This document shows, one piece after another, positions 2,565 through 62,971 of a stretch of 64,000 nucleotides of DNA (position 1 is the first letter of the stretch; each line of letters opens with the position of its first letter). The stretch comes from Escherichia phage ECML-117: sequence record JX128258. One strand, written 5' to 3'. The notes beneath the pieces were generated by a model. The model worked only from the letters and a program-made list of their open reading frames with translations, ran no database searches and was not told the DNA's origin. The position numbers and the translations under genes are program-made.

Positions 2565-2586
2565 TTCAAAAAGGTGAGCTAAATGC

Positions 2587-2614
2587 TTGCCTTTTTATTT
2601 GCCTGTATTATACT
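2587..2614 (+). promoter_or_regulatory. sigma70-like promoter (TTGCCT-N16-TATACT), second copy of cassette
   Basis: Near-identical to cassette at 1033-1082; precedes gene at 2643. Confidence 0.45.
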
Positions 2615-2642
2615 TGTTTCATCAAGCAAAGGAGAATTGATT

Positions 2643-2948
2643 ATGAGTACCGAAGCGATGAAGAAAAAGGTTTCGAATGCTTTGCAAGAAGCCGTGAACT
2701 GTGGTGCCATTAAAGAGTTCAAGGAGACTCAAGAAGGCGGTGAGCCAGTATTCTTCTTTAAGAATAAAAAGGACGGTGTTGCAGCAATCATGTTGTTAAA
2801 GAATAGTGATGACACATTTATCCTTTGCGTCGGAGGATATGACCTTATCGTTGATGATGTATTTATCAATTGTGCCGACGGTCTTAACCCTATGCTGACA
2901 TTTGAGCGTCGCACCATCCGTGTTGCAACGTTTGGAGGGAAGTTATGA
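2643..2948 (+). CDS. hypothetical protein (101 aa)
   Basis: In frame with track ORF 2583..2948; ATG at 2643 preceded by AAAGGAGA; N-terminal region similar to product of 3587..4099. Confidence 0.5.
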   Translation: MSTEAMKKKVSNALQEAVNCGAIKEFKETQEGGEPVFFFKNKKDGVAAIMLLKNSDDTFILCVGGYDLIVDDVFINCADGLNPMLTFERRTIRVATFGGKL

Positions 2949-3130
2949 GTACCGAAGTCCACAACGCATCAGCCTTGGTTAGCTTTTACCGTAACAAAGG
3001 CGTGTCGCTCGTTAAAACGCCGCAAGGGATGTTGTTCTTTGGCACGCGATTCCTGAAAGCATCGGAGCGTGAAACGCTGTCCAAGTTCGACCAGAAAACA
3101 TTGCACGCAGTTTGGAGAAGACAACAATGA
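2945..3130 (+). CDS. hypothetical protein (61 aa)
   Basis: Track ORF; start overlaps upstream stop. Confidence 0.4.
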   Translation: MSTEVHNASALVSFYRNKGVSLVKTPQGMLFFGTRFLKASERETLSKFDQKTLHAVWRRQQ

Positions 3131-3420
3131 GACTAAGCCTAGCGCAAATTCAAACATTGTACCGGATGGAAGACGGAACGCCATACATGCTGCGCGGCGA
3201 CCGCAAGAAGGCTTATGAAAAGCGGCCATCACTGTTTCACGACATCAATGCGCCATCAATCCCTGTCTTATTCCGGTTGGGCCTTGTTGATTGGGCGGCG
3301 CCAGGAGAGAAAGACCCGACGCGCTATTCATCCGTGGTGATGACAAAAGCAGGTCGCGCGGCATTAAAAGAGATTAAAGAAAATATGGCTGGAGGTAAAT
3401 ATTATGACATCAAATCTTAA
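3127..3420 (+). CDS. hypothetical protein (97 aa)
   Basis: In frame with track ORF 3112..3420; ATG at 3127 overlaps upstream stop. Confidence 0.4.
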   Translation: MRLSLAQIQTLYRMEDGTPYMLRGDRKKAYEKRPSLFHDINAPSIPVLFRLGLVDWAAPGEKDPTRYSSVVMTKAGRAALKEIKENMAGGKYYDIKS

Positions 3421-4874: not shown

Positions 4875-5162
4875 GCGTATAATGACGTAAGATTTGGACC
4901 TATCCGTAGTTCACTCCACACACTTCTATGGTGCGCCGCGACTGGGTTCAGTGGTACATCTTACGGATGATACGGATGATACGCGTCGCCGCTATACTTT
5001 ATACAACTTTGAAAAAAACAATTAACTCCATTTTGAATTAATTTAAATTAATTTTTTTCTACATCCTCATACTTATACTAAACTTATGTTTATACGTATT
5101 ATCCGTAAGATATAAGTAAAAACAAAGACTTGCGGCAATACGGATGATACGTCATGATACGC
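4875..5162. promoter_or_regulatory. iteron/AT-rich control element, copy A
   Basis: GCGTATAATGACGTA at 4875-4889; tandem 9-mers in CTTACGGATGATACGGATGATACGCGTCGCCGC at 4960-4992; AT-rich tract 4993-5100; inverted ATCCGTAAG at 5101; ACGGATGATACG at 5140-5151. Homologous to copy B at 20906-21180. Confidence 0.5.
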
Positions 5163-16405: not shown

Positions 16406-16567
16406 TTCAATCTCCTTTCGTTTGGTTAACTAAAATATAACTCAAAATGATGCAAAAGCAAAATATTTTATGAACTATTTATGATCACCATACATATCAT
16501 TTGCTTACAAACACATGAATATTTATAATATAGATTGATTCCCTTTCACTGTCAGGTGGCGTTAACA

Positions 16568-20905: not shown

Positions 20906-21180
20906 GCGTATAATGACGTATCATCCGTATCAAGTAAGTAGTTGTTTTCAAAAGAATCTTACGGATGATACGGATGATACGCGTTGCCGCGATACTTTAT
21001 AGGAATTCAAATAAATTAATTTAAAATTATATATCTAATTTAATTTTATTTTTTTATAAACTCTTATATATGAAAAGTATCCGTATCATCCGTATCATCC
21101 GTAGCACACCAGTGATAGCGCGGCTTATACACCGATACGGATAAAAAATACGCCTCATCTTATCCGTATCATCCGTATCA
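20906..21180. promoter_or_regulatory. iteron/AT-rich control element, copy B
   Basis: GCGTATAATGACGTA at 20906-20920; CTTACGGATGATACGGATGATACGCGTTGCCGC at 20958-20990; AT-rich tract 21001-21075; inverted triple ATCCGTATCATCCGTATCATCCGTA at 21079-21103; inverted double at 21162-21180. Confidence 0.55.
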
Positions 21181-21289
21181 CACTAATTAAGGCGCGGCTA
21201 TATCGGCTGTTATACATATTCAAACCATAATTATTGTTTGCCTAAGTTTTTTTCATTAGATATAATACACAATACTTATTTGAGGGTGG

Positions 21290-45951: not shown

Positions 45952-46812
45952 TTAAAACTCTTCTGCGTCAGTCGGAGTTTCGTTGACAGGACCAGCGGCA
46001 CCGCTTGCTTCTTCCTGCTTGCTGCGGTCAATGTTAACGTTGCCGCCAACTACGTCGTTGTGGAATGCTTTGGCGACTTCATACAGACCTTTGTCCTGCA
46101 CCAGACCTTCCAGCTCAAACTTCAGAACTGACCAGGTGTTGCCGTCTTTGGACTGAGACGCAGTACCCATGCGAACGATGTTCATAAAGGTCGGCGGAGT
46201 TTTCAGGCCCTGCGGAGTCTGAACTTTCTTCTGCTGCAGAGCGGTCATCAGCATGCGAGACGGCTTGATCATGGAAGAAGTCAGAGACAGCATTGCGCTA
46301 CCAAATTCACCAGTTTCTTCGTTTAACAGGATCACAAAGTGGTTACGTGTATCTGCGTAGTAAGGTGATTTCTTCTCGTGCACTTTGCCGTTTTCATCCG
46401 GCACAAACACCTTACCGTTGATCTCAACAGCGCGGCCTGCCGCGACTTCTGCATCAACGTGCTCTTTGGTGAATTCACCTTTAAAGCCTTTATCGTCTGA
46501 CTCGCGACCGCCCCAAAGGATGAAGGTGCGTTTGAATGCGCAAGGGATGATCTGCACGCCTTTCTTGCCGTCATACAACTCACCAGTAACTGTGTTGTAC
46601 AGCATACCAGCTTTTGCGCCAGGCACGTGTTTTGGATCATCTTCGTCGACCATCGGAGACATCTTTTGCAGTACAACGATAAAAGGAATGGCATAAGCGT
46701 CGGCATCGGCACCTTCAAAACCAGCGCCAAAATCGGTCATATCGACAAAATCAGCCATAGCGGACATCTGGGTGTTTTTCACTGCAACTTCGGTAGTTTC
46801 TTTCTTAGACAT
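45952..46812 (-). CDS. putative ssDNA-binding/annealing protein with acidic C-terminal tail
   Basis: 286 aa; C-terminus NETPTDAEEF as in phage SSB tails; call is tentative. Confidence 0.3.
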   Translation of the reverse strand: MSKKETTEVAVKNTQMSAMADFVDMTDFGAGFEGADADAYAIPFIVVLQKMSPMVDEDDPKHVPGAKAGMLYNTVTGELYDGKKGVQIIPCAFKRTFILWGGRESDDKGFKGEFTKEHVDAEVAAGRAVEINGKVFVPDENGKVHEKKSPYYADTRNHFVILLNEETGEFGSAMLSLTSSMIKPSRMLMTALQQKKVQTPQGLKTPPTFMNIVRMGTASQSKDGNTWSVLKFELEGLVQDKGLYEVAKAFHNDVVGGNVNIDRSKQEEASGAAGPVNETPTDAEEF

Positions 46813-47689: not shown

Positions 47690-47721
47690 TTTGTATTCCT
47701 CTGTTTCGTTTCGATGAAGTA

Positions 47722-47750
47722 ATTATGACTCATCTTCCCTGACAAGTCAA
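47722..47750 (-). promoter_or_regulatory. sigma70-like promoter (TTGACT-N17-CATAAT)
   Basis: Read on minus strand between the SNF2 stop and the start of 47426..47689; overlaps a CGTTTCGATGA element. Confidence 0.4.
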
Positions 47751-47763
47751 ATTATTTTTGATA

Positions 47764-49287
47764 TTAATTCATCTTTTTGCCGTCGAGGATGTGATCAGCA
47801 AGCATAGACTTCATACTTAGTGAACGCTGAATTTCTTCGTCGATGGTATCAACACCAATAAAATCAACATACAATACGCTTGATTTTGTTCCGATGCGGT
47901 GATTTCGGTCTTCGGATTGCTTGCGCAACTCGTTGTCATAGTTGCAAGAATAGTAGATTGCCAAGTCAGCGGCGGTAAGCGTGATGCCGATGCCTGCCGC
48001 TGCAGCGTGGCAAACCAATACCTGTGTTCCGCCATTCGCCACTGTGTTCTTCTGGAAGTCATCAATTAAGAACTCGCGTTGCTCTTTTGACGTTTCACCG
48101 TTGTATACACCAGTGACCACGCCTTCAGACTCAAGCCAATCCTTAATCTGGTTCATCTCTTCCTTAAAGATGGCCCAAACAATGAATTTGCGCTCTGGGT
48201 CATCTTCCAACACCCCTTCCACATAGTCCTTAAATGCCGTGAATCGTGGGTTGTCTTCCATGTAGACCATCTCATCATACACCTTAACAAAGCCGGATGT
48301 CACCTGCTTCATCTTAGTGCGCGACGCGATCATCTCAAACTTGACGTTTTCTTCTTCGCCTTTGTACTCCATCAGATAGTTGTACTCATTCTTGAGTTCA
48401 TCGTAAACATCGCGTTGTTTAGGCGACAACTCGAAGTCAATAAACTTGTACACCTTCTCTGGAAGGTCCGGCAAGTATTCCGCTTTTGTCGCACGAAAAT
48501 AGTGCGGTTCCATCAGCCGGATAAGCTTGTCAAGGTTTTTGTACATCGGTCGGCCAAACTGGTCTTTGCGCGGCACTTGCGGAATCCCATGGCCATTGCC
48601 GCCGATTTTCTTGAGGATGGCTTGCATCTCTGGGTCGTGCGCTTCAAGTAGCACCGTGAATTCAGAGTTGAATGCACGGAATGATTTGGTGCCGAGCAAG
48701 CCTGCTTCAAGGAAGTGGTATTGCATGTAAATATCCGCAGGCGAGCGCGGCAACGGCGTGCCAGAAAGGATTCGACGGGCCTTTGCCAGCCGTCCCAATT
48801 CCACAACCTTGATGGAGCGTTTTGCTGTGTTATTCTTGATTCGCGTTGATTCGTCGATAATCATCAGGCAGCGGTATTTCTTCAAGACCGACTCGATGTG
48901 TTGATAACCGACTGGTGTGTTGACTGTGTCGATGTTGAATGAGAAAATGCGCGCAGGCACTTCGCCTTCAGGGTAGTGATCAGCAAACATCTTCTCCCAA
49001 AGCGCCTTGCCCTTTTTAGTCTTCATCTTGTCATTGCCGCGCCAGTAGTGCCCAATCCACTTGATGGAAAGGTGTTCTGGTGCTTCACGACGAATCCAGT
49101 TTGAGTGGACACCGTTTGGAGCGATGACGACCATGGCATCGAACGCGCCAGCGACGAAGTGCTTTTCAAACTCTGCCAAAGCGGTCCAAGTTTTACCAAG
49201 ACCCTGTTCCATGAAATAGGCAAAGTATTTTCTGCGGCCTGCTTTATCAAGCGCCAGAAGCTGGTGGCGCATCCCTTGTGTTTTCAT
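47764..49287 (-). CDS. SNF2-family helicase/ATPase
   Basis: 507 aa; Walker A GLGKT, DEST box (MIIDESTRIKN), C-terminal helicase domain. Confidence 0.7.
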   Translation of the reverse strand: MKTQGMRHQLLALDKAGRRKYFAYFMEQGLGKTWTALAEFEKHFVAGAFDAMVVIAPNGVHSNWIRREAPEHLSIKWIGHYWRGNDKMKTKKGKALWEKMFADHYPEGEVPARIFSFNIDTVNTPVGYQHIESVLKKYRCLMIIDESTRIKNNTAKRSIKVVELGRLAKARRILSGTPLPRSPADIYMQYHFLEAGLLGTKSFRAFNSEFTVLLEAHDPEMQAILKKIGGNGHGIPQVPRKDQFGRPMYKNLDKLIRLMEPHYFRATKAEYLPDLPEKVYKFIDFELSPKQRDVYDELKNEYNYLMEYKGEEENVKFEMIASRTKMKQVTSGFVKVYDEMVYMEDNPRFTAFKDYVEGVLEDDPERKFIVWAIFKEEMNQIKDWLESEGVVTGVYNGETSKEQREFLIDDFQKNTVANGGTQVLVCHAAAAGIGITLTAADLAIYYSCNYDNELRKQSEDRNHRIGTKSSVLYVDFIGVDTIDEEIQRSLSMKSMLADHILDGKKMN

Positions 49288-53186: not shown

Positions 53187-53738
53187 TTATGCAGTGTACG
53201 GAGTACCGTCTTGATTCAAGCGCACGATAAACTTCAAATCAACGCCGATGATTTCACGCGTATCAAAGATCACATAGTTGTAACGACGCTGACCAGCAAT
53301 ATTTGGGTTGGTGTGAGAGTCGGTCACAACTTCCTGCGCAACCTGAATGCCTTCTTCTTTAAAGAACTTGCGCCATTCAGCAAGTTCAGCGGCAGTCACG
53401 TGCATACCAAGATGGCTAACCTGATTGTCGTGCGCATCGATGTATTCGATGTTTTCGTGAATCCAGTTGCAACCTTTTGTATAGTCAAGAATTTCAAGCT
53501 CAAGAGGCTTACCAGCGCCGCCATCGGTGCCGTTGCCAGCCTGATAGTTGAAGCGCAAGTCAGCTTCGTTGGTGCAATCGCCGCGCTGACCCTTAAAGAC
53601 ATCAGCTTCAAATACGCGACCAGTAGCAACAACGTGATCATGGAACCATTCTGTCAGGCCGATTTTAGCCAGGAAATTCTGTGCGCGCTGAGCACCTGGA
53701 ATTGACAGGGCGATTTGTTCAATTTTAAAGTGTGGCAT
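53187..53738 (-). CDS. hypothetical protein (183 aa)
   Basis: Track ORF; no confident motif. Confidence 0.5.
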   Translation of the reverse strand: MPHFKIEQIALSIPGAQRAQNFLAKIGLTEWFHDHVVATGRVFEADVFKGQRGDCTNEADLRFNYQAGNGTDGGAGKPLELEILDYTKGCNWIHENIEYIDAHDNQVSHLGMHVTAAELAEWRKFFKEEGIQVAQEVVTDSHTNPNIAGQRRYNYVIFDTREIIGVDLKFIVRLNQDGTPYTA

Positions 53739-53834
53739 TTTGTTTCCTTAATTAAATATTATTGATTAATTACTGTGTTATCTTCGTCCTGTTTCTTTTC
53801 AGGAGCGGGTGTGACAACTTCAAATGTTCGTGAT

Positions 53835-54518
53835 TTATTTCCCAAATGGAATATCAGTACCAGACATAAAACGCCATGCGCCCGTAATTAAGATATGGCG
53901 AATGAAGTCAGCAATTACTTGCGGCTCAGTCTCCAATCCATTCATCAACGCCTTTTTCTGGTATTCAGCAGCATACTCAGGAGTCCAGCCGCGAGTCGCG
54001 CAAACAGCATCTTCAATCTGTTTGGACATACCAGTGCCGCGCAACTTGTTAGGACTAATAGAAAATACCGTGATCCCGTATTTAGGCGTAAGCTCGTGAG
54101 CCATCTGCTTGCTAATCATGAGCGCAGCAGCCTTGGAAGCATTATAACACAAGCTGGACGTCATAGGAATATGCGCAGCGTTGGAAACGATATTGATCAC
54201 AAAACCTTTGTTGTCGATAAGACTTTTCAGCGCGGCTTGAGTCGTGTTGACGAAAGAGAAGGCGTTGGTGTGCATAACGCGATTGAACTCTTCGTAGTTA
54301 ACATCTTCAAACCAGTTGTTGGAGTTGACGCCAGCACAGTTGATCAAGCCTTCTACATCATATGGGCTTAAAATTTCTTTCATCTGTTTCGCGTCGCGGA
54401 CGTCATATCCGTATGCTGAATCGATTCCAAGCACGTTATGACCGTAAGCGCCAAGGGTGTCAAAAATAGATTTACCAAGACCGGAATTGGAACCTGTTAC
54501 AACAATTACTTTTTTCAT
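53835..54518 (-). CDS. short-chain dehydrogenase/reductase (SDR)
   Basis: 227 aa; VTGSNSGLGKS cofactor-binding motif and YNASK catalytic motif. Confidence 0.65.
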   Translation of the reverse strand: MKKVIVVTGSNSGLGKSIFDTLGAYGHNVLGIDSAYGYDVRDAKQMKEILSPYDVEGLINCAGVNSNNWFEDVNYEEFNRVMHTNAFSFVNTTQAALKSLIDNKGFVINIVSNAAHIPMTSSLCYNASKAAALMISKQMAHELTPKYGITVFSISPNKLRGTGMSKQIEDAVCATRGWTPEYAAEYQKKALMNGLETEPQVIADFIRHILITGAWRFMSGTDIPFGK

Positions 54519-54539
54519 TTATTTATCCTTTTTGGACTT

Positions 54540-54573
54540 CGTTTCGATGAGATAAATATAACTCATCGAAACG
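54540..54573. repeat. perfect 12-bp palindrome CGTTTCGATGAG-N10-CTCATCGAAACG
   Basis: Read directly between HAD and SDR genes; a related imperfect element lies at 47706-47733. Confidence 0.7.
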
Positions 54574-54583
54574 CACAAGTAAA

Positions 54584-55456
54584 CTATTTATTGAAATTAA
54601 TATTGTGGGTGTTGACGAGACGTTCACACATGGCGCTGTAAACACCATCGTCGTGTATAGAGTCTTCGTGCTTCAGGCCGCTGATTGCAAAGCGTGTAAG
54701 CTTGACAATCTTAAGCTCGAACAGATGCCACATGTGGTAGTCTTCCGGCGTTTTCAACGTTACGCCATTAGGGAAAAGCACCTGCATAACCTGGCCAACC
54801 ATCACGGCATTATCGCCATAGACAGCGTTGCGCTCACGGAAGGTTGCTGCCATTGCATCAAGAATATCGGCGGCAGTTGCCGGAGATTGTTCAACTTCCA
54901 CAGTCTTAGTCTCTTCTTGTCCTGTTGCGCTTGGATCAATTGCTAATTGTTGCACCACTTCACCTGCCTTGCAAAGATTAAATGTAAAAGCGATTTTATT
55001 TTGAGCAACGGAATTATAATACAATGCTTCATCTTGCATCCGCGCGAGCACGTCTTGTCGGTCGTCGAATACATTGATGATTCGATAATCGCCGTGCCGC
55101 AATGCGTGCGATAGCCATGCAGATTTCATAATAGTTGATGGACGTTTGTCGCCATAGTCTCTCATCTTGATTGTAAATTCATCAAAAGGAAAAACATTGT
55201 CCAGACGTTCAAAAGTCACTTGTCTGTATTTTTCTGGCCTTGCAGTCCAATATTCAACCGCCTCACCGCGAAGAGATGCCGACTCTACTGCTGATGCAAT
55301 GCGAGGATAGAACTGATCATAACCAATACCGCTGTGATAGTCATCATAGTCTGACAACGGACCTGCCACCTTTATGCGGTCCAAGCGCCAACGGTCATCA
55401 AACAGCGTTCCGTCAAGGTCGAATACGTTTAATATTTGGTTATTTTTAATACTCAT
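54584..55456 (-). CDS. HAD-superfamily hydrolase/phosphatase
   Basis: 290 aa; N-terminal motif I FDLDGTLF. Confidence 0.55.
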   Translation of the reverse strand: MSIKNNQILNVFDLDGTLFDDRWRLDRIKVAGPLSDYDDYHSGIGYDQFYPRIASAVESASLRGEAVEYWTARPEKYRQVTFERLDNVFPFDEFTIKMRDYGDKRPSTIMKSAWLSHALRHGDYRIINVFDDRQDVLARMQDEALYYNSVAQNKIAFTFNLCKAGEVVQQLAIDPSATGQEETKTVEVEQSPATAADILDAMAATFRERNAVYGDNAVMVGQVMQVLFPNGVTLKTPEDYHMWHLFELKIVKLTRFAISGLKHEDSIHDDGVYSAMCERLVNTHNINFNK

Positions 55457-56256
55457 CCCTTTGACACTCCATCTTTAGCAACTGGATTGTTGGTGATTGG
55501 CGCGGCATCCCAAAACTGGATGCGCAACTCTTCTTGCTGTGCCGTGGTATCCATCCAATCACGATACCAAGGGCAATGGGCTTTGCCATGACGAGGAAAC
55601 GCGCATTTACCCATACCGATGCATTGCGGCTGTAGTAAAGGATTAGCCCACGGGTGCACCTTGAGGACTTCCGCAACCATTGCGCGAAATACTTCTTGAT
55701 ACTCGCCTTGGGTGCGCGTGCACAAGCGGTTGGAAGCCATCTGTTGCAGCGTGCGCAAGTTGAACTTTGCCATGATATGCGTTTGCATATTAGAAGGCAA
55801 CACGGCACGTGCATCTTGAATCTCTGCGCCAGCCGCGCGAAGTTCTTGGTATAGGGCGTCAATGGTCGCCATTGCATCATCCCAGGTGTTAGCCAACTTC
55901 AAACGCTGCTCGTCGATTCTCTCGCCGATAACCCTGTCAGGGTCGTCATACTCAAACGCTTTCGGACGAATCGCATCAAACGCAGAAGACTCCTGAGCGC
56001 GGCTGGTGCGTTCTTGATATGCGCCTGTGCGTGTGCGTACCATCTGATGGGTCATGTTCTTTGATACATCTGTGATATCAAAAATATAGTCCACAAAGTC
56101 AAAAGGTGACTTGATTGTATCGAGCATGTAGCGCCAATGCTCTTGCTTCTCTGATTCCGTCATCTCAGAGACAGGCTTACCAGTCATGCGCGTGTTCTTT
56201 GTTTCCAGCAAAAGGTCAAGTGCATCTTGGGTGTATCGAATTAATTCAACTTTCAT
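55453..56256 (-). CDS. ThyX-like (flavin-dependent thymidylate synthase fold) protein with non-canonical motif
   Basis: 267 aa; SPFDFVDYIFDITDVS and RTRTGAYQERTS align by eye to ThyX TPFEHIVFTFHVKAP and RHRIASYNELS; the RHR-x7-S signature is altered. Confidence 0.4.
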   Translation of the reverse strand: MKVELIRYTQDALDLLLETKNTRMTGKPVSEMTESEKQEHWRYMLDTIKSPFDFVDYIFDITDVSKNMTHQMVRTRTGAYQERTSRAQESSAFDAIRPKAFEYDDPDRVIGERIDEQRLKLANTWDDAMATIDALYQELRAAGAEIQDARAVLPSNMQTHIMAKFNLRTLQQMASNRLCTRTQGEYQEVFRAMVAEVLKVHPWANPLLQPQCIGMGKCAFPRHGKAHCPWYRDWMDTTAQQEELRIQFWDAAPITNNPVAKDGVSKG

Positions 56257-56269
56257 TTTAATTATCCTA

Positions 56270-56716
56270 TTAACGGTAATTCACTAGTTGCTGATCACCA
56301 GAGAAGGTGCAATGATAAACGAATTGTGCGTTATAAAGCAACTGAAAACTTTTCTTTGGTTCACTATTAGCACTCATCGATGTGAATACTTCTGCACCGG
56401 AACGGTTTTCACCGATTAAGTTGACAAAGCCGCCAGTTGTGCGAGGTTGAACGAAAGTGAAGCGTTGCATCCACGGAGTCCGGTTGGCACCTTTACCTGT
56501 GAATCCTTGAATCTGAATATTCAGACCTTCTTGCTCGTTCACACCGATGTAAGTGGTAATCTTTGCACCAGTCGTTGCTGCGGTCTTCCCGTCCATCGCT
56601 TCGCAATCGTAAACAGCGATTGAATCGGAAGTGCGGATGGCAGCTTCAGTCGCTTCCATATACATGGTGCCGAGAATAGCAGTTGCGGCAAGCGCGATTC
56701 CAGTGATTCGTTTCAT
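56270..56716 (-). CDS. secreted protein (148 aa)
   Basis: Signal-like N-terminus MKRITGIALAATAILGTMYMEATEA. Confidence 0.5.
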   Translation of the reverse strand: MKRITGIALAATAILGTMYMEATEAAIRTSDSIAVYDCEAMDGKTAATTGAKITTYIGVNEQEGLNIQIQGFTGKGANRTPWMQRFTFVQPRTTGGFVNLIGENRSGAEVFTSMSANSEPKKSFQLLYNAQFVYHCTFSGDQQLVNYR

Positions 56717-56781
56717 TTTCGTTTCCTCTATGAGTTCTGCTTCAATGATTAAAGTATACGCCCATTGAAGCAGAAAGCAAA

Positions 56782-57777
56782 TTATTTATTAGCAATATAA
56801 GCAAATTTTTGATAGTTATTTGCTTTGATGAGTTTTTCGACTTCAACAAGGTCATGAGCGACGTCATCAAGCAAAATGTTTCGCCAGGTAGCGAATCTAC
56901 CGACACTAAAAACGTTCAAATCCATAGTCAGCTGCAGGAGTAGGGCGTGTCGCAAGTCTTTCGGAATGTCGACAATCTTGCCATATTTCTGGTCGACCTT
57001 TTCAACTTCTTCAAGAGCGATATCACTCCATGAAAGGCCAAATGCCGTCAACACTTCGTCGACTTCTGCGCGAAGCTTCATGTCACGGTAACGAGTGATG
57101 CCTCCAGCGGCTTCAACTGCAGCTTCACTTACGCTGACTAAAGGAATTGTTTCAATGATAAGCGTGTCACCAGTAATTGATGCGCGGTAAGTTCTGACGG
57201 AGTAGTCAGGGAAGTAAATTGTCTGATACAAATCACACTTACGTTTAATCTTAAAGCGGTAAACGCGAATGTTTGCTTTATCAAATGAAAAATCAAGCTT
57301 TTGATCAATTCCAGCAAGCTTCATCATGACTGGCAGCGGCGACGTGTTGATGATTGGCGTCTCGCTATAGCCGCAAAGAGTATCAACAGGAGTATTAAAG
57401 AATATGCGGTCACCCAGTTTGTCGACAAGCTGATCATAAAAGTCATCAGGCGCAATATAACGCGTTGCAGTCTTAAGCTTCATGATTGAACGGCTGCCAA
57501 ACTGATTGGTGACCTTCATGGAATACATATTGGCAAGGTTAATTGGGCAATGGTCATGGTAGTAGTTGCCGCGAAAATACACAGCCTTGTCAACTGTCAC
57601 GGCCTTAAAGGGGATTCCGGTAATACGGCTTACTTCTTCGCCACGGAAGCGTAGCAATGCCTTGTGCTGTTGCGCTCGTTCCCCTGCTTCGTACACAACA
57701 GAGTTCGGGAAGTGACACGCTGTGATAAGTCCTGCCAGTCCGCCGCCGATAATCATTACAGGTTGTTTCATGTTCAT
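56782..57777 (-). CDS. FAD/NAD(P)-binding flavoprotein oxidoreductase
   Basis: 331 aa; N-terminal IIGGGLAGL Rossmann motif; C-terminal GRFATWRNILLDD resembles the C-terminal motif of UGM/amine-oxidase-type flavoenzymes. Confidence 0.5.
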   Translation of the reverse strand: MNMKQPVMIIGGGLAGLITACHFPNSVVYEAGERAQQHKALLRFRGEEVSRITGIPFKAVTVDKAVYFRGNYYHDHCPINLANMYSMKVTNQFGSRSIMKLKTATRYIAPDDFYDQLVDKLGDRIFFNTPVDTLCGYSETPIINTSPLPVMMKLAGIDQKLDFSFDKANIRVYRFKIKRKCDLYQTIYFPDYSVRTYRASITGDTLIIETIPLVSVSEAAVEAAGGITRYRDMKLRAEVDEVLTAFGLSWSDIALEEVEKVDQKYGKIVDIPKDLRHALLLQLTMDLNVFSVGRFATWRNILLDDVAHDLVEVEKLIKANNYQKFAYIANK

Positions 57778-57909
57778 TTGTCCTTTGTGGGTGATATGAG
57801 AAGTATAATAGCTAAATTATTTTACAGCAACAAGTCATTTTATTTAGTACAGATGAAAAAAGACCCACAACAAGTGTGGGTCAATTACCGCTGCATAACC
57901 GTCCTAAGG

Positions 57910-58755
57910 TTATTCCGCTTGATCACCGTCTTCGGCATCGTCGTTGGATTCAACATCGACAAACTCGATGTGACCCATCTCTTCCAGCTTGCTCAGGTAG
58001 GAGCGAACGGAAGCGCCAAACAGTTGATCTTTAACTTTTTCGCCCAGCTCATCGATAGACTGCGCCACGCCAACTTCGCCTTCTTTGATCGCCGCCAGAA
58101 CGCGTCCACGGGTGGAGTGCTCTTGCGGCTGGCTCAGGCCATTGCCAGTGTAGATGAAGTGAGTAGCTTTTGCACGACGCTGACCGTTTGCCTTTTTAGC
58201 GGCCTTACGTTCTGCGATGGCTTTGCGACGTTCTTCAGCTTCTTTCTTACGCTGTTCTTTCTGCTGTTCTGCAGCTTCTTTCGCCGCAATCTTAGCAGCT
58301 TCACGCTCTGCCTTGCGTTTCGCTTTAGCTTCTTCTTTAGCCTTCTCTTTTTCGGCCTTCGCTGCAGCACGGGCTTGATCACGCTCTGCTTTCTTAGCAG
58401 CAGCTTGCTCAGCTTTCAGACGCTTGGCTTCTTCTTTAGCCTTCGCCTTTTCGATTTCTTTTGCTGCTTTAGCGGCTTCACGCTCTGCCTTCTTAGCAGC
58501 AGCCTTTTCTGCACGCTCTTTGGCTTTCTTCGCTGCTTCTTCAGCACGTTTCTGAGCCTTCTCATCAGCAGCCTGCTTACGTTTCAGTGCAGCTTCTTCA
58601 CGCTTGGCTTGTTTTTCCTGCTCACGCTTTTGGCGTTTTTCTTCGGCTTCTTTCTTTTTAGCCAGGCGTTTTTCTTCAGCCACGCGACGACGTTCTGCTG
58701 CAGCTGCTTGTTTTTCTTCTTTAGATAATACTTTGATTGCTTCGGCCATGTTCAC
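57910..58755 (-). CDS. Lys/Ala/Glu-rich (TolA-like repeat) protein with C-terminal globular domain
   Basis: 281 aa; about 180 residues of KAEEKAA-type repeats; the plus-strand ORF 57664..58728 is its low-complexity antisense. Confidence 0.55.
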   Translation of the reverse strand: MNMAEAIKVLSKEEKQAAAAERRRVAEEKRLAKKKEAEEKRQKREQEKQAKREEAALKRKQAADEKAQKRAEEAAKKAKERAEKAAAKKAEREAAKAAKEIEKAKAKEEAKRLKAEQAAAKKAERDQARAAAKAEKEKAKEEAKAKRKAEREAAKIAAKEAAEQQKEQRKKEAEERRKAIAERKAAKKANGQRRAKATHFIYTGNGLSQPQEHSTRGRVLAAIKEGEVGVAQSIDELGEKVKDQLFGASVRSYLSKLEEMGHIEFVDVESNDDAEDGDQAE

Positions 58756-58908
58756 AGTCCTTAAATAAATTAGTTTATTTTATATTCCCCGTTTGGGATA
58801 ACTTAATTATGCCTTCAGTCGCCGCCAGTAGCAACTAAAAACTCTGGCGGCAATGCCACTTTAATTAAACTGATTTTCAGTTTTATTTTTCGTAAATTTA
58901 CGTCAACA

Positions 58909-60093
58909 TTAACGCGCTTTCAAATCACGGTACACAGTCAGATTCTTCTTAGCGCGGGTAATAGCCGTATACATCATCTTGGCATACGGAACGCCGCGCA
59001 AGATTTCTTCCAGCACGCACACATTGTCCCACTCGCTGCCTTGCGATTTGTGCACCGTTATGACATAGCCATAGTCCATTCCTCCAACAGCGCGTTGGGC
59101 CTCTTTGCGCACTTCCTGATCAGTAGAGAAGGAAAGAGGATTTATCTTCACCTTTATATCTTTGCCATCGGTAAGCGAGCGCAAATTGACATACATTATT
59201 TCATTAGACTCATCTTCATCCCTTTCAAAGTCCGGCACTGGCTCATAACTAATAACAATTCCTTGTTCGCCATTACAGAATCCTGGCCCGTGTTGGTTGA
59301 ATGTGCAAATAACTTTCTCGCCGATTCCTGGCATTGGCGTTATACGTCCGCTCACTTGTCGCAATAATGAATTCCATTTATCTTTGGTGCTATTATAAGA
59401 GCAAATAATTTGATCATCTTCGCCCATAAATTTCTTCAGAGCGGTAACGCGCGGCGATTCAGCCAACACCTTTACATCATCATATTCACGCGGAGGAAGT
59501 CGGTTGCCCTGTCGCACGAAGAAGGAAGCGCGGATTATGTTGGACTCTTTCCCCTGCCGCATGATTTCGGTCAACAGTACGTCAACTGCATCTTCAGTAA
59601 AGTAGGCAGCGGCTTTTACCGGAGGGACTTGTCCAATGTCGCCTAATGCCAGCACAGGGATGCGGTGATCAAGAAGGCGTTCTGTGTCCCACTCACCGAC
59701 CATTGAAGCTTCATCAAGGACGACAAGATGCGGCCTTTCATCAAGAGTTGACTTTCTTGCGAATATTGGTTCATTGTCATCGTTAACGCCGCGCACGTTA
59801 TAGATGAACTGGTGAAGGGTCTTAGCGCCACGACACCCTTTCTGCTTCAATCGGCTGGCTGCCTTTCCGGTCGGCGCAATATAAATGGCACCGTACTCAC
59901 CGACACAACGGCGCACAATCTCACGCGCAATAGAGGTTTTACCTGTTCCTGCATAGCCAGCGATGAAAAATACGCGCTTCGTTGTTTTACCGTCCTGCAA
60001 TCGCTTGTACCATGCAACGGCCTTTTCGATGGCATCAATTTGTTGCGCGTTGAACTGAATCACCGGCTCATCATTAAATTCTGGAATGTTCAT
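58909..60093 (-). CDS. SF1 DNA helicase (Dda/RecD-like)
   Basis: 394 aa; Walker A GYAGTGKTS, Walker B VLDEASMV, C-terminal ITVHKSQGSEWDNV. Confidence 0.7.
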   Translation of the reverse strand: MNIPEFNDEPVIQFNAQQIDAIEKAVAWYKRLQDGKTTKRVFFIAGYAGTGKTSIAREIVRRCVGEYGAIYIAPTGKAASRLKQKGCRGAKTLHQFIYNVRGVNDDNEPIFARKSTLDERPHLVVLDEASMVGEWDTERLLDHRIPVLALGDIGQVPPVKAAAYFTEDAVDVLLTEIMRQGKESNIIRASFFVRQGNRLPPREYDDVKVLAESPRVTALKKFMGEDDQIICSYNSTKDKWNSLLRQVSGRITPMPGIGEKVICTFNQHGPGFCNGEQGIVISYEPVPDFERDEDESNEIMYVNLRSLTDGKDIKVKINPLSFSTDQEVRKEAQRAVGGMDYGYVITVHKSQGSEWDNVCVLEEILRGVPYAKMMYTAITRAKKNLTVYRDLKAR

Positions 60094-60419
60094 TATAACT
60101 CCACTACGCTTTCAAGGTCCAGATATACTGGAATAAAATGGCAATCTTCTTTTCGTTCAAACATCTCACCGTCAACTCGGCTGAAGAAAACAGTCGTGTT
60201 TGGTATCTTCCACCCTTGCTCGTCGCGCACCAGGTACGCCATGGATTCAACAGGGATGTAAAGTGATACCGGATTTGCGGCAAAGATGAATTTGATTCTG
60301 TCTGGTTGACCCAGGAATCGCATAATTGTAAGACTTGAATTCAGTCTTGTATTAAGGAAGGACTCAACGATGCCGACGTGTGTTGCACGTTCGCGTTGCT
60401 TCGTATCTTTTTCGTTCAT
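60093..60419 (-). CDS. hypothetical protein (108 aa)
   Basis: Track ORF. Confidence 0.45.
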   Translation of the reverse strand: MNEKDTKQRERATHVGIVESFLNTRLNSSLTIMRFLGQPDRIKFIFAANPVSLYIPVESMAYLVRDEQGWKIPNTTVFFSRVDGEMFERKEDCHFIPVYLDLESVVEL

Positions 60420-60522
60420 TTCAGGCGACCTTTGTTAGTGCGGAAATATTTTCTGATAGTATAATTGCAGATATAGTATAAAGCAAAGTAAATCGAAATT
60501 GTGAAATAAATGGTAAATATTG

Positions 60523-60550
60523 TTGACTTTGTATCACTCAATATTATACT
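60523..60550 (+). promoter_or_regulatory. sigma70-like promoter (TTGACT-N16-TATACT)
   Basis: Read directly in the divergent intergenic region upstream of 60580. Confidence 0.5.
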
Positions 60551-60579
60551 GCAGGTATTGATCACCGAAGGAAAGAAAG

Positions 60580-61662
60580 ATGGCTAGTTTAAGAGAAGAA
60601 GCAAAAATAATTGAAGAGTTTTTGACGGAACTCCAAAGAGGCATTCCAGAAGATGAACGCGTCATGACCGTGTTTGCGCCTGAAGCAACGGTGCAGACCG
60701 ACGAGCGCGGCAAAAAGATTAACAGCAGCTTCTGGCCTAAGCCTTGGAAGCTTGGCAAGCCGCTGATGCAACATCAGAACGGTTACGCCTGCATAAGTTC
60801 AATGCGTAAGTCTCCCAACCCCAAGACAGGCGAGATGCGATACTGGCGCACGGAATCGGCTTTCGGTCATGGCATGGCGATGATGGTCGACGACATTGGT
60901 CACGGTAAAGGGTCCAAAGGCGATTTAGATTTGGAATTCTTTTTCGAGCGCCTGAAGCCAACCGTCATTGTCGAGACTTCACCGAACAACCACCAGCTGT
61001 GGTATTTCTTTAAAGACCCGATTGACCATCTTATCCAGTTCAAAGCATTCCTTGGGTCTTTCGTAAACATGGTACTCAAGAAGGGCGGCGACAACACGAT
61101 TAAAGATGTAACGCGCGTGGGCCGTGTTCCTGGGTGCATCAACAACAAGCGTGTGACTCACGACGGCCCCTATAAATATGTCGATGAGAACGGCGACCCG
61201 TTCCGCTGCCGACTTGTTCATGCAGACTATTCTTTGCGCTACACAATCGAAGAGATTTGCCAAGCCTTCGGTTTCCACGTCGTTATGCCGCAAAAGCGTG
61301 AAATTCAAATCGACGTTGACGAATACAAATATGACGCTGTTTGGTATAAGATAGCCCAGCAAATCCTTGCGCGCAATAAGATGGGCGAAGGGTCCGATGG
61401 CGATGTGGTTGAAAATATGTCAGGTAAATGTCGCATCATCTGTCCTTGGGGTGAAGAGCACACCAACGGCGACCCATACGGCGCTTATTTTCGCGGCCCA
61501 ATCCCTGGCGCTGAACATGAATTCGTTTTCGGTTGCGCTCACGACTGTCACCGGAAAGGGGAAGGCAAGAAAGGATGGACCGCTTTTGTTGAAGCAGTAG
61601 TCATGCCTTATATTGAGAATCAACTTGATATGATAAATCGTCGCGCAGGTGGCATAAAATAG
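60580..61662 (+). CDS. primase-like replication protein (Prim-Pol/RepB'-like candidate) with C-terminal Cys/His cluster
   Basis: 360 aa; MVDDIGHG acidic motif, C-terminal CPWGEEH...CAHDCH; lies upstream of an SF3 helicase. Confidence 0.35.
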   Translation: MASLREEAKIIEEFLTELQRGIPEDERVMTVFAPEATVQTDERGKKINSSFWPKPWKLGKPLMQHQNGYACISSMRKSPNPKTGEMRYWRTESAFGHGMAMMVDDIGHGKGSKGDLDLEFFFERLKPTVIVETSPNNHQLWYFFKDPIDHLIQFKAFLGSFVNMVLKKGGDNTIKDVTRVGRVPGCINNKRVTHDGPYKYVDENGDPFRCRLVHADYSLRYTIEEICQAFGFHVVMPQKREIQIDVDEYKYDAVWYKIAQQILARNKMGEGSDGDVVENMSGKCRIICPWGEEHTNGDPYGAYFRGPIPGAEHEFVFGCAHDCHRKGEGKKGWTAFVEAVVMPYIENQLDMINRRAGGIK

Positions 61663-61720
61663 TTTGCTTTTATTTTTCTAGCAACTATAATCATTTTATG
61701 AACTGAAGCAGAGGTGATCT

Positions 61721-61867
61721 ATGCAAAGCGAAGAATTGAACATCGAGCTTGAAGGTCTGTTAAATTCGTTAGAACCTAAGCACGTAGAGCTTCCCACCCT
61801 TGAAGGTGTCATGGCTCACAACCAATCGGCTGCGGCCAAACACTACTTTGAATTTGTTAAGGAATAA
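61721..61867 (+). CDS. small protein (48 aa), not in ORF track
   Basis: ATG at 61721 after GAGGTGA; stop at 61865-61867. Confidence 0.35.
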   Translation: MQSEELNIELEGLLNSLEPKHVELPTLEGVMAHNQSAAAKHYFEFVKE

Positions 61868-61869
61868 AA

Positions 61870-62160
61870 ATGAACGAACCAAAAATGATGACTCCTGAAG
61901 AAGCGCAAAAACTTCGCGTGGAGAACGAGCTTAAGCTTGTCAATGAAATTCTTCCTCTGTTTAAAGGCTATGCGGTTGAAGAAGTCGTTGGCGCAATCCT
62001 TAATGTGTCGACGCACGTAGCGATGAATCTGAATGCAGAGCGTTTCAATACTTTGCTGACGATCAACAAATTTACTGTCAGTGCAACATTCACCGTTGAG
62101 CCAGTAAATTTTGAAGAAGCTGCAGCCGCAATTCAACAACAGCGAGATCAAGAGGTGTAG
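61870..62160 (+). CDS. hypothetical protein (96 aa)
   Basis: Track ORF. Confidence 0.45.
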   Translation: MNEPKMMTPEEAQKLRVENELKLVNEILPLFKGYAVEEVVGAILNVSTHVAMNLNAERFNTLLTINKFTVSATFTVEPVNFEEAAAAIQQQRDQEV

Positions 62161-62161
62161 C

Positions 62162-62425
62162 ATGGGCGCTTTCCGCAACGAGTTTATTTGGAACGTCACA
62201 AGCAGTCTTTCGACTTGTCCTAACTGTGCGAGCGATGTGATCAAGGTGCGGCAGCATCGCAGTGCAGAGGAAGGTGCCTGGGAGGACGGCGACCTTGTAG
62301 AGTGCCAGTGCTGCTCTCACGAAGGCGTGGTGGAGCTTTACGCAGGAGAAGGTTGTCCACCAGCAGAACGTTCAGCACGCGTTGAATGGGATGCGACAGA
62401 CTCCATCGGTGATCCTCAACAGTAA
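62162..62425 (+). CDS. small zinc-ribbon protein (87 aa)
   Basis: In frame with track ORF 62111..62425; ATG at 62162; CPNC...CQCC Cys pairs. Confidence 0.45.
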   Translation: MGAFRNEFIWNVTSSLSTCPNCASDVIKVRQHRSAEEGAWEDGDLVECQCCSHEGVVELYAGEGCPPAERSARVEWDATDSIGDPQQ

Positions 62426-62544
62426 ATTTAGGTATAGATACATATGAAAGCCGTAAAGAAATACACATTAATCATTTCCCTTGTTATCATCCTGGGGCTA
62501 TTATATGTATTGGATATGGCATATTATTTGGCAGGGGTGAGTAA

Positions 62545-62835
62545 ATGAATATTGTAATTCTTTATGGTGAGAATATCAGCGATGACGACATCGAAGTTGC
62601 CGTTGATGTTTACGGTATCGATGAGGTGAAACGTGTTGAAGAAATTAATGGCTCAAATCTTAATGAGATTGCCAAAGAAGCTGGTTGCCCTTCGGAAGAG
62701 ATTTTGGTGGTTACTAACGATGACCTGTCTTCTATGGATTGTTTGCGCCGCATCTTCACCGATTGCCAATACCTTCATTCTGTTCAGTCAGTAAACAAAT
62801 TGAGAAAGGCATACGCTGACCAATTTCCTTGCTGA
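62545..62835 (+). CDS. hypothetical protein (96 aa)
   Basis: Track ORF; GGGGTGAG upstream. Confidence 0.45.
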   Translation: MNIVILYGENISDDDIEVAVDVYGIDEVKRVEEINGSNLNEIAKEAGCPSEEILVVTNDDLSSMDCLRRIFTDCQYLHSVQSVNKLRKAYADQFPC

Positions 62836-62886
62836 TAGTTCACCAGTTATATTGCTTTAAACTGAGTTTTACTATATTAATATACA

Positions 62887-62910
62887 ACGCCAGATTTCTG
62901 GCGTTTATTT
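62887..62910 (+). terminator. rho-independent terminator (ACGCCAG-attt-CTGGCGT + TTATTT)
   Basis: Read directly after the stop at 62835. Confidence 0.55.
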
Positions 62911-62971
62911 ACCGCACCCTGAAAGGATATATCCATGCAACAATATAACAAAGCCGTATCAGGAGGATTAA

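What the first reader, a model, noticed from the sequence alone, without database searches (positions are those of the whole stretch)
57910..58755. TolA-like Lys/Ala/Glu-repeat protein
About 180 residues of KAEEKAA-type repeats, resembling the long helical domain II of TolA, are fused to a short C-terminal globular domain. It sits between the flavoprotein gene and the Dda-like helicase. Candidate functions include a DNA-associated scaffold, an envelope-spanning factor or a host-takeover protein.
Basis: partly seen in the sequence, partly recalled or inferred. Interest (0 to 1): 0.45.

Follow-up and report, generated by a model that had tools for sequence, protein, structure and literature searches.

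The report
Charge-striped helix plus winged-helix phage protein
The ORF is a real, very highly expressed and strongly conserved core gene of Wifcevirus/Pbunavirus phages, wrongly labelled "TolA" in databases; it encodes a roughly 26 nm single helix with one basic and one acidic face, joined to a small winged-helix-like domain, and is most likely an abundant DNA-associated architectural protein, though its function has never been tested.

Summary
The minus-strand ORF is real, with its start at the ATG at 58749 (279 aa).

- **Coding evidence.** In five Wifcevirus genomes, all 45 variable sites in the 195 helix codons are synonymous. The long plus-strand antisense ORF has pN/pS about 2. Peptides of the orthologue were detected in CsCl-purified virions.
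- **Architecture.** AlphaFold predicts one uninterrupted helix (residues 10-186), a conserved Arg-rich arm (G-x-RR-x-KATH), a 68-residue winged-helix-like domain and an acidic tail.
- **Not TolA.** There is no membrane anchor, no TolA C-terminal domain and no similarity once composition is corrected. TolA domain II has a charge period of about 7.2 residues. This helix holds an 11-residue register for 16 repeats, with basic residues on one face and acidic residues on the opposite face. That striping recurs in 21 of 23 family members.
- **Expression.** The gene is a monocistronic unit with a sigma70-like promoter and a terminator. Its host-adapted codon bias is the strongest in the window, above the major head protein.
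- **Distribution.** The family (PHROG 4765, function unknown) is small and lineage-restricted. It always lies between the Dda-like helicase and the flavoprotein gene.

Best reading (about 0.4): an abundant, non-sequence-specific DNA-associated architectural protein, possibly co-packaged with the genome. It is a new variant of a known kind, of moderate interest.

The parts
58806..58834 (-). sigma70-like promoter, TTGCTA-17 nt-CATAAT, about 57 nt upstream of the start codon
   Evidence: Consensus scan, 9 of 12 matches. Equivalent TTGCxx-17-xATAxT sites lie 47-58 nt upstream of the orthologues in Serratia WR01, Pseudomonas tabernarius and Xanthomonas XcP1. Sequences are listed. Not detected by the scan in LBL3. 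Function is inferred.
58821..58851 (-). inverted repeat GCCGCCAG-N15-CTGGCGGC that overlaps the -35 hexamer; a probable insulator or terminator after the helicase gene, or an operator
   Evidence: Read from the sequence. Hairpins sit at the same place in tabernarius and WR01. Role not tested.
58758..58762 (-). Shine-Dalgarno sequence AAGGA, 8 nt before the ATG
   Evidence: Read from the sequence.
57910..58749 (-). coding sequence, 279 aa plus TAA; PHROG 4765
   Evidence: ORF. PHROG 4765, E 2.4e-84. Sense-frame pN/pS 0.02. Orthologue peptides found by MS. Arg/Leu codon bias ranks 1st of 64 ORFs.
58192..58722 (-). residues 10-186: a single uninterrupted alpha-helix (~26 nm) with a basic stripe and an acidic stripe in an 11-residue register, preceded by an N-capping box L-S-K-E-E
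   Evidence: AlphaFold helix 10-186, pLDDT mostly above 90. No hydrophobic periodicity. Hendecad table and 178-degree opposition of basic and acidic residues. Family-wide periodicity. 0 amino-acid changes at 45 polymorphic codons. Capping-box motif in 14 of 26 members.
58162..58191 (-). residues 187-196: conserved Arg-rich arm A-N-G-Q-R-R-A-K-A-T (family motif G-x-R-R-x-K-A-T-H)
   Evidence: R192 is invariant; R191 and T196 are at least 90% conserved in 24 sequences. Lower pLDDT suggests a flexible linker.
57958..58161 (-). residues 197-264: winged-helix-like domain (beta-H1-beta-H2-H3-beta); H3 = SVRSYLSKLEE carries invariant R249 and K254
57913..57957 (-). residues 265-279: disordered acidic tail (D/E-rich; the last 17 residues carry net -8)
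   Evidence: Composition. pLDDT below 50. Longer acidic tails occur in most relatives and are absent in a few.
57853..57882 (-). intrinsic terminator GACCCACA-CTTGT-TGTGGGTC followed by TTTTTT
   Evidence: Scan, 8-bp stem. Terminators at the same place in LBL3, WR01 and tabernarius, and annotated in LBL3 and XcP1.
57664..58728 (+). 354-codon antisense open frame: a by-product of the codon composition, not a gene
   Evidence: pN/pS 2.03 in this frame. Long open antisense frames appear in the orthologues in varying frames.

Best explanation
The gene encodes an abundant, lineage-specific phage protein that most likely associates with nucleic acid, probably the phage's own DNA, as an architectural protein rather than a sequence-specific one.

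**Shown**
- The gene is real, under very strong purifying selection, and codon-optimised like the major head protein.
- It is bracketed by terminators and preceded by a sigma70-like promoter match, so it looks like a monocistronic unit (transcripts were not mapped).
- The protein has four parts: an N-capped ~26 nm single helix with no hydrophobic seam, whose basic and acidic residues sit on opposite faces in an 11-residue register; a conserved Arg-rich arm; a small winged-helix-like domain with invariant Arg and Lys on its third helix; and an acidic tail.
- The orthologue is present, at a high score, in one CsCl-purified virion preparation.

**Inferred**
- The winged-helix domain and the arm anchor the protein on DNA.
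- The straight basic stripe lies along or bridges DNA. Alternatively it zips onto the acidic stripe of neighbouring molecules to build arrays on DNA.
- The acidic tail modulates binding.
- Part of the pool leaves the cell with the packaged genome.
For: **Real and constrained.** The sense frame has pN/pS 0.02. The helix region has 45 polymorphic sites, all third-position, and no amino-acid change. This is the most conserved gene among its neighbours.

**Abundant.** 97% of Arg and Leu codons are CGT/CGC/CTG, rank 1 of 64 ORFs. The major head protein scores 0.85 and the median is 0.36. A promoter and a terminator flank the gene in several genera.

**Virion proteomics.** The orthologue vB_Eco4M-7_83 gave 7 peptides and a score of 1198 in CsCl-purified particles. 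That ranks 7th of 33, above portal, sheath and capsid (PMC7048862).

**Compatible with DNA binding.**
- The invariant residues are mostly basic or polar: R192, R214, R249, K254, S212, Q209.
- The helix carries a net charge of about +25, with basic residues confined to a ~100-degree stripe.
- The striping is conserved in 21 of 23 relatives although the helices cannot be aligned.

**Location and loss from ghosts.** The gene sits inside the replication and nucleotide-metabolism module in 8 genera. The orthologue is absent from DNA-free 'ghost' particles of a Pbunavirus. That fits a protein that leaves with the DNA.
Against: - No DNA binding has been measured.
- Winged-helix folds also mediate protein-protein contacts, as in RPA32C, PBP2 and kleisins, which are among the hits.
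- The isolated domain is slightly acidic (net -3).
- In some relatives the helix has a net charge near zero, for example P0026 and P0015.
- Virion detection is inconsistent. The score was only 3.2 in ECML-117, other non-structural proteins were present in the same preparations, and the protein was not listed in Pbunavirus S1 ghosts.
- The cryo-EM main texts searched (E217, Pa193) do not mention it.
Confidence: 0.4

Rival explanations
1. A protein-protein adaptor or spacer within the replication or DNA-hypermodification machinery. The winged-helix-like domain and acidic tail bind a partner such as the neighbouring Dda-like helicase or a modification enzyme, and the rigid helix acts as a tether.
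Against: Expression at the level of the capsid protein is excessive for an adaptor of enzymes that are themselves weakly codon-adapted. The helix length varies between 112 and 195 residues, so it is not a strict ruler. A basic stripe and an Arg-rich arm are unnecessary for a pure spacer.
Confidence: 0.2
2. A structural component inside the virion, such as a capsid-internal, scaffold-like or ejected protein, whose primary role is not DNA binding.
For: High MS score in CsCl-purified vB_Eco4M-7. Several database records call the orthologue a 'putative structural protein'. The long charged helices resemble scaffolding proteins.
Against: The gene lies outside the structural module. Pa193 assigns scaffolding to gp24. 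The protein is not listed in S1 ghost particles and is weak in ECML-117. The LBL3 label carries a note, 'putative cell wall associated hydrolase', which suggests a composition-driven BLAST annotation rather than proteomics.
Confidence: 0.1
3. A sequence-specific transcription regulator, for example an activator of the non-sigma70 middle or late promoters, or a repressor.
Against: Codon bias at capsid-protein level and abundance in proteomics are atypical for a specific regulator. A ~26 nm charged helix has no precedent in such factors. No link to any motif was established.
Confidence: 0.1
4. A TolA-like or envelope-spanning factor: the long helix bridges the periplasm during infection or lysis.
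For: Composition like TolA domain II. The helix length of ~26 nm is of the order of the periplasmic width (inference).
Against: No signal peptide, membrane anchor or hydrophobic segment. No TolA domain I or III. No similarity after composition correction, and a different charge periodicity. The C-terminal fold is winged-helix-like.
Confidence: 0.04
5. The minus-strand ORF is not the gene; the 354-codon plus-strand ORF 57664..58728 is the gene, or neither is.
For: The antisense frame is open for 354 codons.
Against: Antisense pN/pS is 2.03, against 0.02 for the sense frame. The sense protein is conserved at 54% identity in Pseudomonas phages of very different GC content. Peptides of the sense product were detected. 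Open antisense frames are a general by-product in the orthologues.
Confidence: 0.01

Closest known systems
TolA domain II (E. coli Tol-Pal system)
   Same: A long Ala/Lys/Glu-rich helical segment of about 180-250 residues with almost no hydrophobic residues and a similar amino-acid composition.
   Different: No membrane anchor and no TolA C-terminal domain. No BLASTP similarity once composition is corrected. TolA II has a charge period of ~7.2 residues, with opposite charges alternating on the same face and no power at 3.6-3.67. This helix has period 3.65, with basic and acidic residues on opposite faces. The genomic setting is a phage replication module, not tolQRAB-pal.
ER/K single alpha-helix (SAH) domains (myosin VI/X, caldesmon)
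   Same: Predicted isolated long helix rich in E, K and R, with no hydrophobic seam. Opposite-charge i+3/i+4 pairs are enriched (z = 2.3) and like-charge pairs depleted (z = -2.7).
   Different: Charges are segregated into two faces in an 11-residue register, rather than arranged in alternating E/K blocks of about 7-8 residues. The helix is 31% Ala and has a net charge of about +25. The monomeric state is untested.
Winged-helix DNA-binding domains (BlaI/MecI, ArsR/SmtB, MarR type)
Linker histone H1 and bacterial H1-like proteins (Hc1, AlgP)
   Same: A winged-helix-type globular domain combined with a long Lys/Ala-rich extension, high abundance, and a presumed architectural role on DNA.
   Different: The domain order is reversed. 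The extension is about 22% acidic and predicted to be a rigid helix, not a disordered polycation. No sequence relationship exists, and histone H1 globular domains score only E about 4-9 in Foldseek.
PHROG 4765 / Pbunavirus ORF66 (LBL3 gp64, 14-1 gp67), BcepF1 and MTx 'TolA protein'
   Same: True orthologues. They share the architecture, the position between the Dda-like helicase and the flavoprotein gene, and the promoter/terminator framing.
   Different: The window protein is the most basic member examined (N-region net +28, against -4 to +16 in the others). It lacks the His-rich N-terminus seen in many relatives and has a short acidic tail.

Membership tests
TolA | N-terminal transmembrane anchor (domain I) | tested here: not met
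   The N-terminus is MAEAIKVLSKEEKQ. Residues 11-195 hold only 7 hydrophobic residues, none consecutive.
TolA | C-terminal TolA domain III or a match to TolA family models | tested here: not met
   No Pfam or NCBIfam TolA hit at E<=1. The C-terminal fold is winged-helix-like.
TolA | Sequence similarity to TolA beyond composition | tested here: not met
   BLASTP against E. coli K-12 TolA gives no hit at E<=10 with SEG and composition-based statistics, but 1e-32 without them.
TolA | Ala/Lys/Glu-rich long helical domain II (composition) | tested here: met
   A 31%, K 25%, E 21% here, against A 41%, K 20%, E 16% in TolA II.
TolA | Charge pattern of domain II (period of about 7 residues) | tested here: not met
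   TolA II has its best period at 7.2-7.4 and power 0.13-0.14 at 3.6-3.67 (shuffle 95% = 0.82). The window helix has its best period at 3.65, power 2.6.
Coiled coil | Heptad (3.5-residue) periodicity of hydrophobic residues | tested here: not met
   Hydrophobic residues make up 4% of the helix. Power at 3.5 is 0.01. Ala is unphased, with a resultant of 0.013.
ER/K single alpha-helix (SAH) | Long helix rich in E, K and R with no hydrophobic seam | tested here: met
   AlphaFold helix 10-186 with pLDDT mostly above 90. Composition.
ER/K single alpha-helix (SAH) | Alternating blocks of acidic and basic residues that give i to i+4 salt-bridge ladders all around the helix | tested here: not met
   Charges are segregated on opposite faces in an 11-residue register. 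There is only a modest excess of i+3/i+4 opposite pairs (z = 2.3).
ER/K single alpha-helix (SAH) | Monomeric and stably helical in solution | not testable with these tools
   Needs CD, AUC or SAXS on purified protein.
Winged-helix DNA-binding domain | Three-helix core with a beta wing; structural superposition on known members | tested here: inconclusive
Winged-helix DNA-binding domain | Match to an HTH or winged-helix sequence family | tested here: not met
   No Pfam hit for 9 members at E<=10. A profile of 24 members against PDB sequences has a best E of 0.54.
Winged-helix DNA-binding domain | Binds DNA | not testable with these tools
   Needs EMSA or ChIP.
Linker-histone-like / bacterial H1-like proteins | Lys/Ala(/Pro)-rich extension almost free of acidic residues | tested here: not met
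   40 acidic residues among residues 11-195.
Virion (internal or ejected) proteins | Reproducible presence in purified particles | tested here: inconclusive
   Literature only. Score 1198 in vB_Eco4M-7 but 3.2 in ECML-117. Not among 31 proteins of Pbunavirus S1 ghosts. Supplementary MS tables for Pa193 and FoX6 were not available.
PHROG 4765 | Full-length match to the family profile | tested here: met
   E 2.4e-84, residues 1-279 on profile positions 14-271 of 294.

The most novel reading that the evidence does not exclude
The two-faced helix is an electrostatic zipper: the basic stripe of one molecule pairs with DNA or with the acidic stripe of the next. The protein would then polymerise into a coat or lattice on the hypermodified phage DNA. 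That coat would be packaged with the genome and injected with it, making this a chromatin-like protein of a tailed phage that organises, condenses or shields the incoming and replicating genome. The 11-residue repeat (about 16.5 A) is close to half a turn of B-DNA.
Probability: 0.12. Interest if true: 0.8.

Novelty: new variant of a known kind. Interest (0 to 1): 0.5.

Why it matters
This is a core gene of Pbunavirus, among the Pseudomonas phages most used in therapy, and of the fast-replicating Wifcevirus coliphages. It appears to be expressed at capsid-protein level and is frozen residue by residue within the genus. Yet it has no assigned function and is mislabelled 'TolA' or 'structural protein' in databases.

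The analysis replaces a composition-driven label with a concrete, testable design: a ~26 nm helix with opposite basic and acidic faces in an 11-residue register, joined to a winged-helix-like domain. If the protein coats or organises phage DNA, it would be a rare case of an abundant architectural DNA protein in a tailed phage. It would then bear on packaging, on genome protection and on the handling of hypermodified DNA.

Even if its role is more modest, the charge-striped hendecad helix is a distinct variant of the single-alpha-helix theme and is worth biophysical study.

Tried and rejected
**Searches that gave nothing**
- Pfam, NCBIfam and PDB sequence searches with the whole protein, the C-domain, and a 24-member profile found nothing significant.
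- The word-indexed protein search returned only fragments (4, then 9 proteins). Full-length low-complexity proteins seem to be missed. The exhaustive representative search found just 27 clusters, all with the same architecture, so other domain contexts gave no functional clue.
- Foldseek against PDB was not significant, and the BFVD search returned only family members labelled 'TolA' or 'structural'. The afdb50 library was unavailable.

**Readings rejected**
- TolA homology.
- Coiled coil: no hydrophobic heptads.
- Tandem DNA repeats: only a weak ~100-nt internal duplication.
- A second K/E/A-rich gene in the genome: the 'second place' in the BLAST hits is that internal duplication.
- Scaffolding protein: Pa193 assigns that role to gp24, in the structural module.
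- Phage SSB: another ORF, 45955-46812, is the better candidate.

**Literature gaps**
- Supplementary tables for Pa193 LC-MS, FoX6 MS and 14-1 ONT-cappable-seq are not held.
- The Ceyssens 2009 PB1-like paper is not held, so the basis of the 'putative structural protein' label in LBL3 could not be checked.
- No paper discussing this protein's function was found.

**Not pursued far enough to conclude**
- Looking for DNA target sites found iteron-like repeats but no link to this protein.
Full report
**Source of the window.** The region is 97-98% identical at the nucleotide level to E. coli/Shigella myoviruses of the genus Wifcevirus: FEC19, WFH, WFC, vB_Eco4M-7 and BASEL phages Bas98-101. In those records the ORF is annotated either as 'hypothetical protein' or as 'TolA protein'.

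**The observation.** The minus-strand ORF 57910..58755 is present.
- *Start codon.* The start is almost certainly the ATG at 58749. AAGGA lies 8 nt upstream, while the GTG at 58755 is only 2 nt from it. Relatives are annotated with the same 840-nt CDS. The product is 279 aa.
- *Composition.* Residues 11-195 are 88% K/R/E/A, with 67 basic and 40 acidic residues (net +27) and only 7 hydrophobic residues. Residues 196-262 have ordinary composition. The last 17 residues carry net -8.
- *Repeats.* At the DNA level there is no real tandem repeat. TRF finds a 2.7-copy 12-mer, and there is one weak ~100-nt internal duplication.

**Which strand codes.** Five Wifcevirus sequences were compared (window, Bas100, Bas98, vB_Eco4M-7, TH32).
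- The sense frame has pN/pS = 0.02. The antisense ORF frame has 2.03.
- In the 195 helix codons there are 45 polymorphic sites. All are third positions and none changes an amino acid. The five amino-acid changes all lie in the C-terminal domain of TH32.
- Long open antisense frames occur in the orthologues too, in varying frames. They are a by-product of GAA/AAG/GCN-rich coding.
- Peptides of the sense product were detected by mass spectrometry in two Wifceviruses.

The minus-strand ORF is the gene.

**Family and context.**
- *Family membership.* The protein matches PHROG 4765 (unknown function) over its full length, E 2.4e-84. It matches no Pfam or NCBIfam model.
- *Distribution.* A tblastn search with the C-terminal 95 residues finds 355 phage records. 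Most are Pbunavirus (54% identity). The rest are Serratia, Salmonella, Pantoea, Burkholderia, Xanthomonas, Aeromonas and other Pseudomonas phages.
- *Family size.* An exhaustive HMMER search of 1.84 billion cluster representatives finds only 27. All have the same layout: a charged Ala-rich N-region of about 110-270 residues, the conserved domain at the C-terminus, and usually an acidic tail. Many also begin with a His-rich stretch, which the window protein lacks.
- *Synteny.* In eight genera the gene sits directly after the Dda-like helicase. In seven of these it is followed by the flavoprotein-like gene (tabernarius is the exception), and a ThyX-like gene lies further on in six.

**Expression signals.**
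- *Promoter.* A sigma70-like site, TTGCTA-17-CATAAT, lies 57 nt upstream of the start. Sites of the form TTGCxx-17-xATAxT lie 47-58 nt upstream of the orthologues in Serratia WR01, Pseudomonas tabernarius and Xanthomonas XcP1 (sequences). The scan finds none in LBL3.
- *Terminator.* An intrinsic terminator follows the gene here (57882-57862 plus a T-run). Terminators also follow it in LBL3, WR01 and tabernarius, and one is annotated in XcP1.
- *Inference.* The gene appears to be an insulated monocistronic unit. This is inferred from sequence; no transcript data could be read.
- *Codon bias.* 34 of 35 Arg and Leu codons are CGT/CGC/CTG (0.97). This ranks first of 64 ORFs of at least 100 aa in the window. 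The median is 0.36, and the major head protein (phrog_264) scores 0.85.
- *Synonymous divergence.* Against Bas100 it is also lower than in the neighbouring genes: pS 0.114 versus 0.18-0.36.

Together these signals point to very high expression.

**The helix.** AlphaFold2, with a shallow alignment, predicts one uninterrupted helix from residue 10 to 186 (about 26 nm), mostly with pLDDT above 90.
- *Not a coiled coil.* Hydrophobic residues are 4% of the helix and show no 3.5-residue periodicity. Ala is unphased.
- *Charge periodicity.* Basic residues show a strong periodicity at 3.65-3.7 residues, with power 3.65 against a shuffle 95th percentile of 1.69.
- *Hendecad register.* Written in rows of 11, the helix keeps a single register for 16 repeats without an indel.
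  - Positions 0, 3, 7 and 10 are basic in 12/17, 12/16, 9/16 and 10/16 rows. Acidic residues there number 2, 0, 0 and 0.
  - Positions 2, 5, 8 and 9 are the acidic ones.
  - At 11/3 residues per turn, the mean directions of basic and acidic residues are 178 degrees apart.
- *Family-wide.* The same charge periodicity (best period 3.65-3.70) is significant in 21 of 23 family members, although their helices cannot be aligned.
- *N-cap.* A capping-box motif ([LK]-[ST]-x-x-[EQ], here L-S-K-E-E) marks the start of the helix in 14 of 26 members.

The 'low-complexity' region is therefore a precisely specified object: a long rod with a basic face and an acidic face.

**Comparison with TolA.** E. coli K-12 TolA was fetched and its domain II analysed in the same way.
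- The composition is similar: A 41%, K 20%, E 16%.
- The charge signal peaks at 7.2-7.4 residues and has no power at 3.6-3.67 (0.13-0.14, against a shuffle 95th percentile of 0.82). This is the salt-bridge-ladder pattern of classical single alpha-helices, not a two-faced helix.
- BLASTP between the two proteins gives nothing at E<=10 with SEG and composition-based statistics. With both switched off it gives 1e-32. This explains the database label.
- The phage protein has no membrane anchor and no TolA C-terminal domain.

The resemblance is compositional only.

**The C-terminal module.** A 24-sequence alignment was built.
- *Conserved residues.* A conserved arm, G-x-R-R-x-K-A-T-H, precedes the domain. 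The invariant residues are R192, Q209, S212, R214, R249 and K254.
- *Predicted fold.* AlphaFold models the domain confidently (pLDDT about 90) as beta-H1-beta-H2-H3-beta.
- *Other searches.* Foldseek against PDB is not significant, with a best E of 0.29. No HTH sequence family matches, even with profiles.

The fold is best called winged-helix-like, with moderate confidence. Whether it binds DNA or a protein cannot be decided computationally.

**Proteomics from the literature.**
- *vB_Eco4M-7.* In CsCl-purified particles the orthologue (gp83, 'TolA protein', 31.1 kDa) gave 7 peptides, 25.8% coverage and a score of 1198. That ranks 7th of 33 proteins, above portal (1112), capsid (936) and sheath (891).
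- *ECML-117.* The orthologue scored only 3.2 (PMC7048862). Other non-structural proteins were present in those preparations.
- *Pbunavirus SCUT-S1.* DNA was removed with LiCl and DNase to make 'ghosts' before MS. The orthologue is not among the 31 proteins listed, although the neighbouring helicase is (PMC6521218).

These data prove translation. They are compatible with a protein that travels with the DNA, and equally with a sticky, abundant contaminant.

**Other literature context.**
- The E217 and Pa193 cryo-EM main texts that were searched do not mention the protein.
- Pbunavirus DNA carries hypermodified thymidine (bioRxiv 10.1101/2025.03.31.646159).
- Wifceviruses show considerable resistance to restriction (PMC11990801).
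- The genes around the target may therefore belong to a DNA-modification pathway. This was not tested here.

**Interpretation.** The best-supported reading (confidence about 0.4) is an abundant, non-sequence-specific, nucleic-acid-associated architectural protein. The winged-helix-like domain and Arg-rich arm would anchor it. The straight basic stripe would lie along or bridge DNA, or zip against the acidic stripe of neighbouring molecules. The acidic tail would modulate binding. Part of the pool may be packaged with the genome.

Capsid-level expression argues against a sequence-specific regulator and against a stoichiometric enzyme adaptor. The absence of any hydrophobic segment argues against an envelope role. 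Rivals that remain open are a protein-protein tether in the replication or modification machinery (0.2), a virion-internal structural protein (0.1) and a transcription factor (0.1). None of the mechanistic steps has been measured.

**Novelty and score.** The building blocks are known kinds: a single charged helix and a winged-helix-like domain. The family is already catalogued as PHROG 4765 and has been seen in proteomics, but without a function and under a wrong name. What is new here:
- the demonstration that it is not TolA-like in design;
- the 11-residue two-faced charge register, conserved across the family;
- the complete absence of amino-acid change in the helix within the genus;
- the capsid-level codon adaptation.

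I rate it a new variant of a known kind, with interest 0.5.

Noticed in passing
window 4958-5023, 20956-21021 and 21079-21199: Iteron-like tandem 9-mers (ACGGATGAT and its complement ATCCGTATC). They occur in two 66-nt copies that are 85% identical, and in inverted orientation about 100 nt away from the second copy. They are followed by TATACT-like boxes. These are candidate operator or origin sites for a phage DNA-binding protein.
   Followed up: no
window 16417-16474, 47705-47768, 54538-54601: A 58-64 nt intergenic element present in three copies (60-75% identical). It contains a hairpin (TTCGTTTCGATGAG...CTCATCGAAACG) and an A/T-rich stretch, so it is probably a recurring terminator/promoter cassette.
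   Followed up: no
window 45955-46812 (-): A 286-aa ORF in phrog_2402 (unknown function) is the second most host-codon-adapted gene (0.86). It ends in an acidic tip...ETPTDAEEF, like T7 gp2.5/SSB C-termini. Its size matches vB_Eco4M-7_70, which was also seen in the virion preparation. It is a candidate phage SSB.
   Followed up: partly
window 53835-57777 (-): The target gene is followed by a flavoprotein-like gene (56782-57777, phrog_4828; called UDP-galactopyranose mutase in phage Mansfield and oxidoreductase in phage Kyle). Further along are a ThyX-like gene (55453-56256), a PNK/HAD-like gene (54584-55456) and a FabG-like reductase (53835-54518). Pbunavirus relatives carry sugar-type hypermodified thymidine, so this cluster may be the modification pathway.
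   Followed up: no
family members P0012, P0016, P0019, P0021, P0022, P0013, P0017 and L005 (tabernarius) 2191-3333: Many relatives, but not the window protein, begin with a His-rich N-terminal stretch such as MSHTHHHD, MHKHHNHDHN or NHDHQHNHQHNH. This may be a metal-binding segment.
   Followed up: no
window 57910-58749 compared with neighbouring genes 53187-62948: Synonymous divergence from Bas100 is 2-3 times lower in the target (pS 0.114) than in most neighbouring genes (0.18-0.36). This suggests selection on codons or on mRNA, in addition to selection on the protein.
   Followed up: partly
GenBank records MH816966, MN176217, MH051335, MT118303 and others: The 'TolA protein' and 'putative cell wall associated hydrolase' labels on orthologues come from composition-driven BLAST hits. 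The same query gives E = 1e-32 against E. coli TolA without composition correction and nothing with it.
   Followed up: yes
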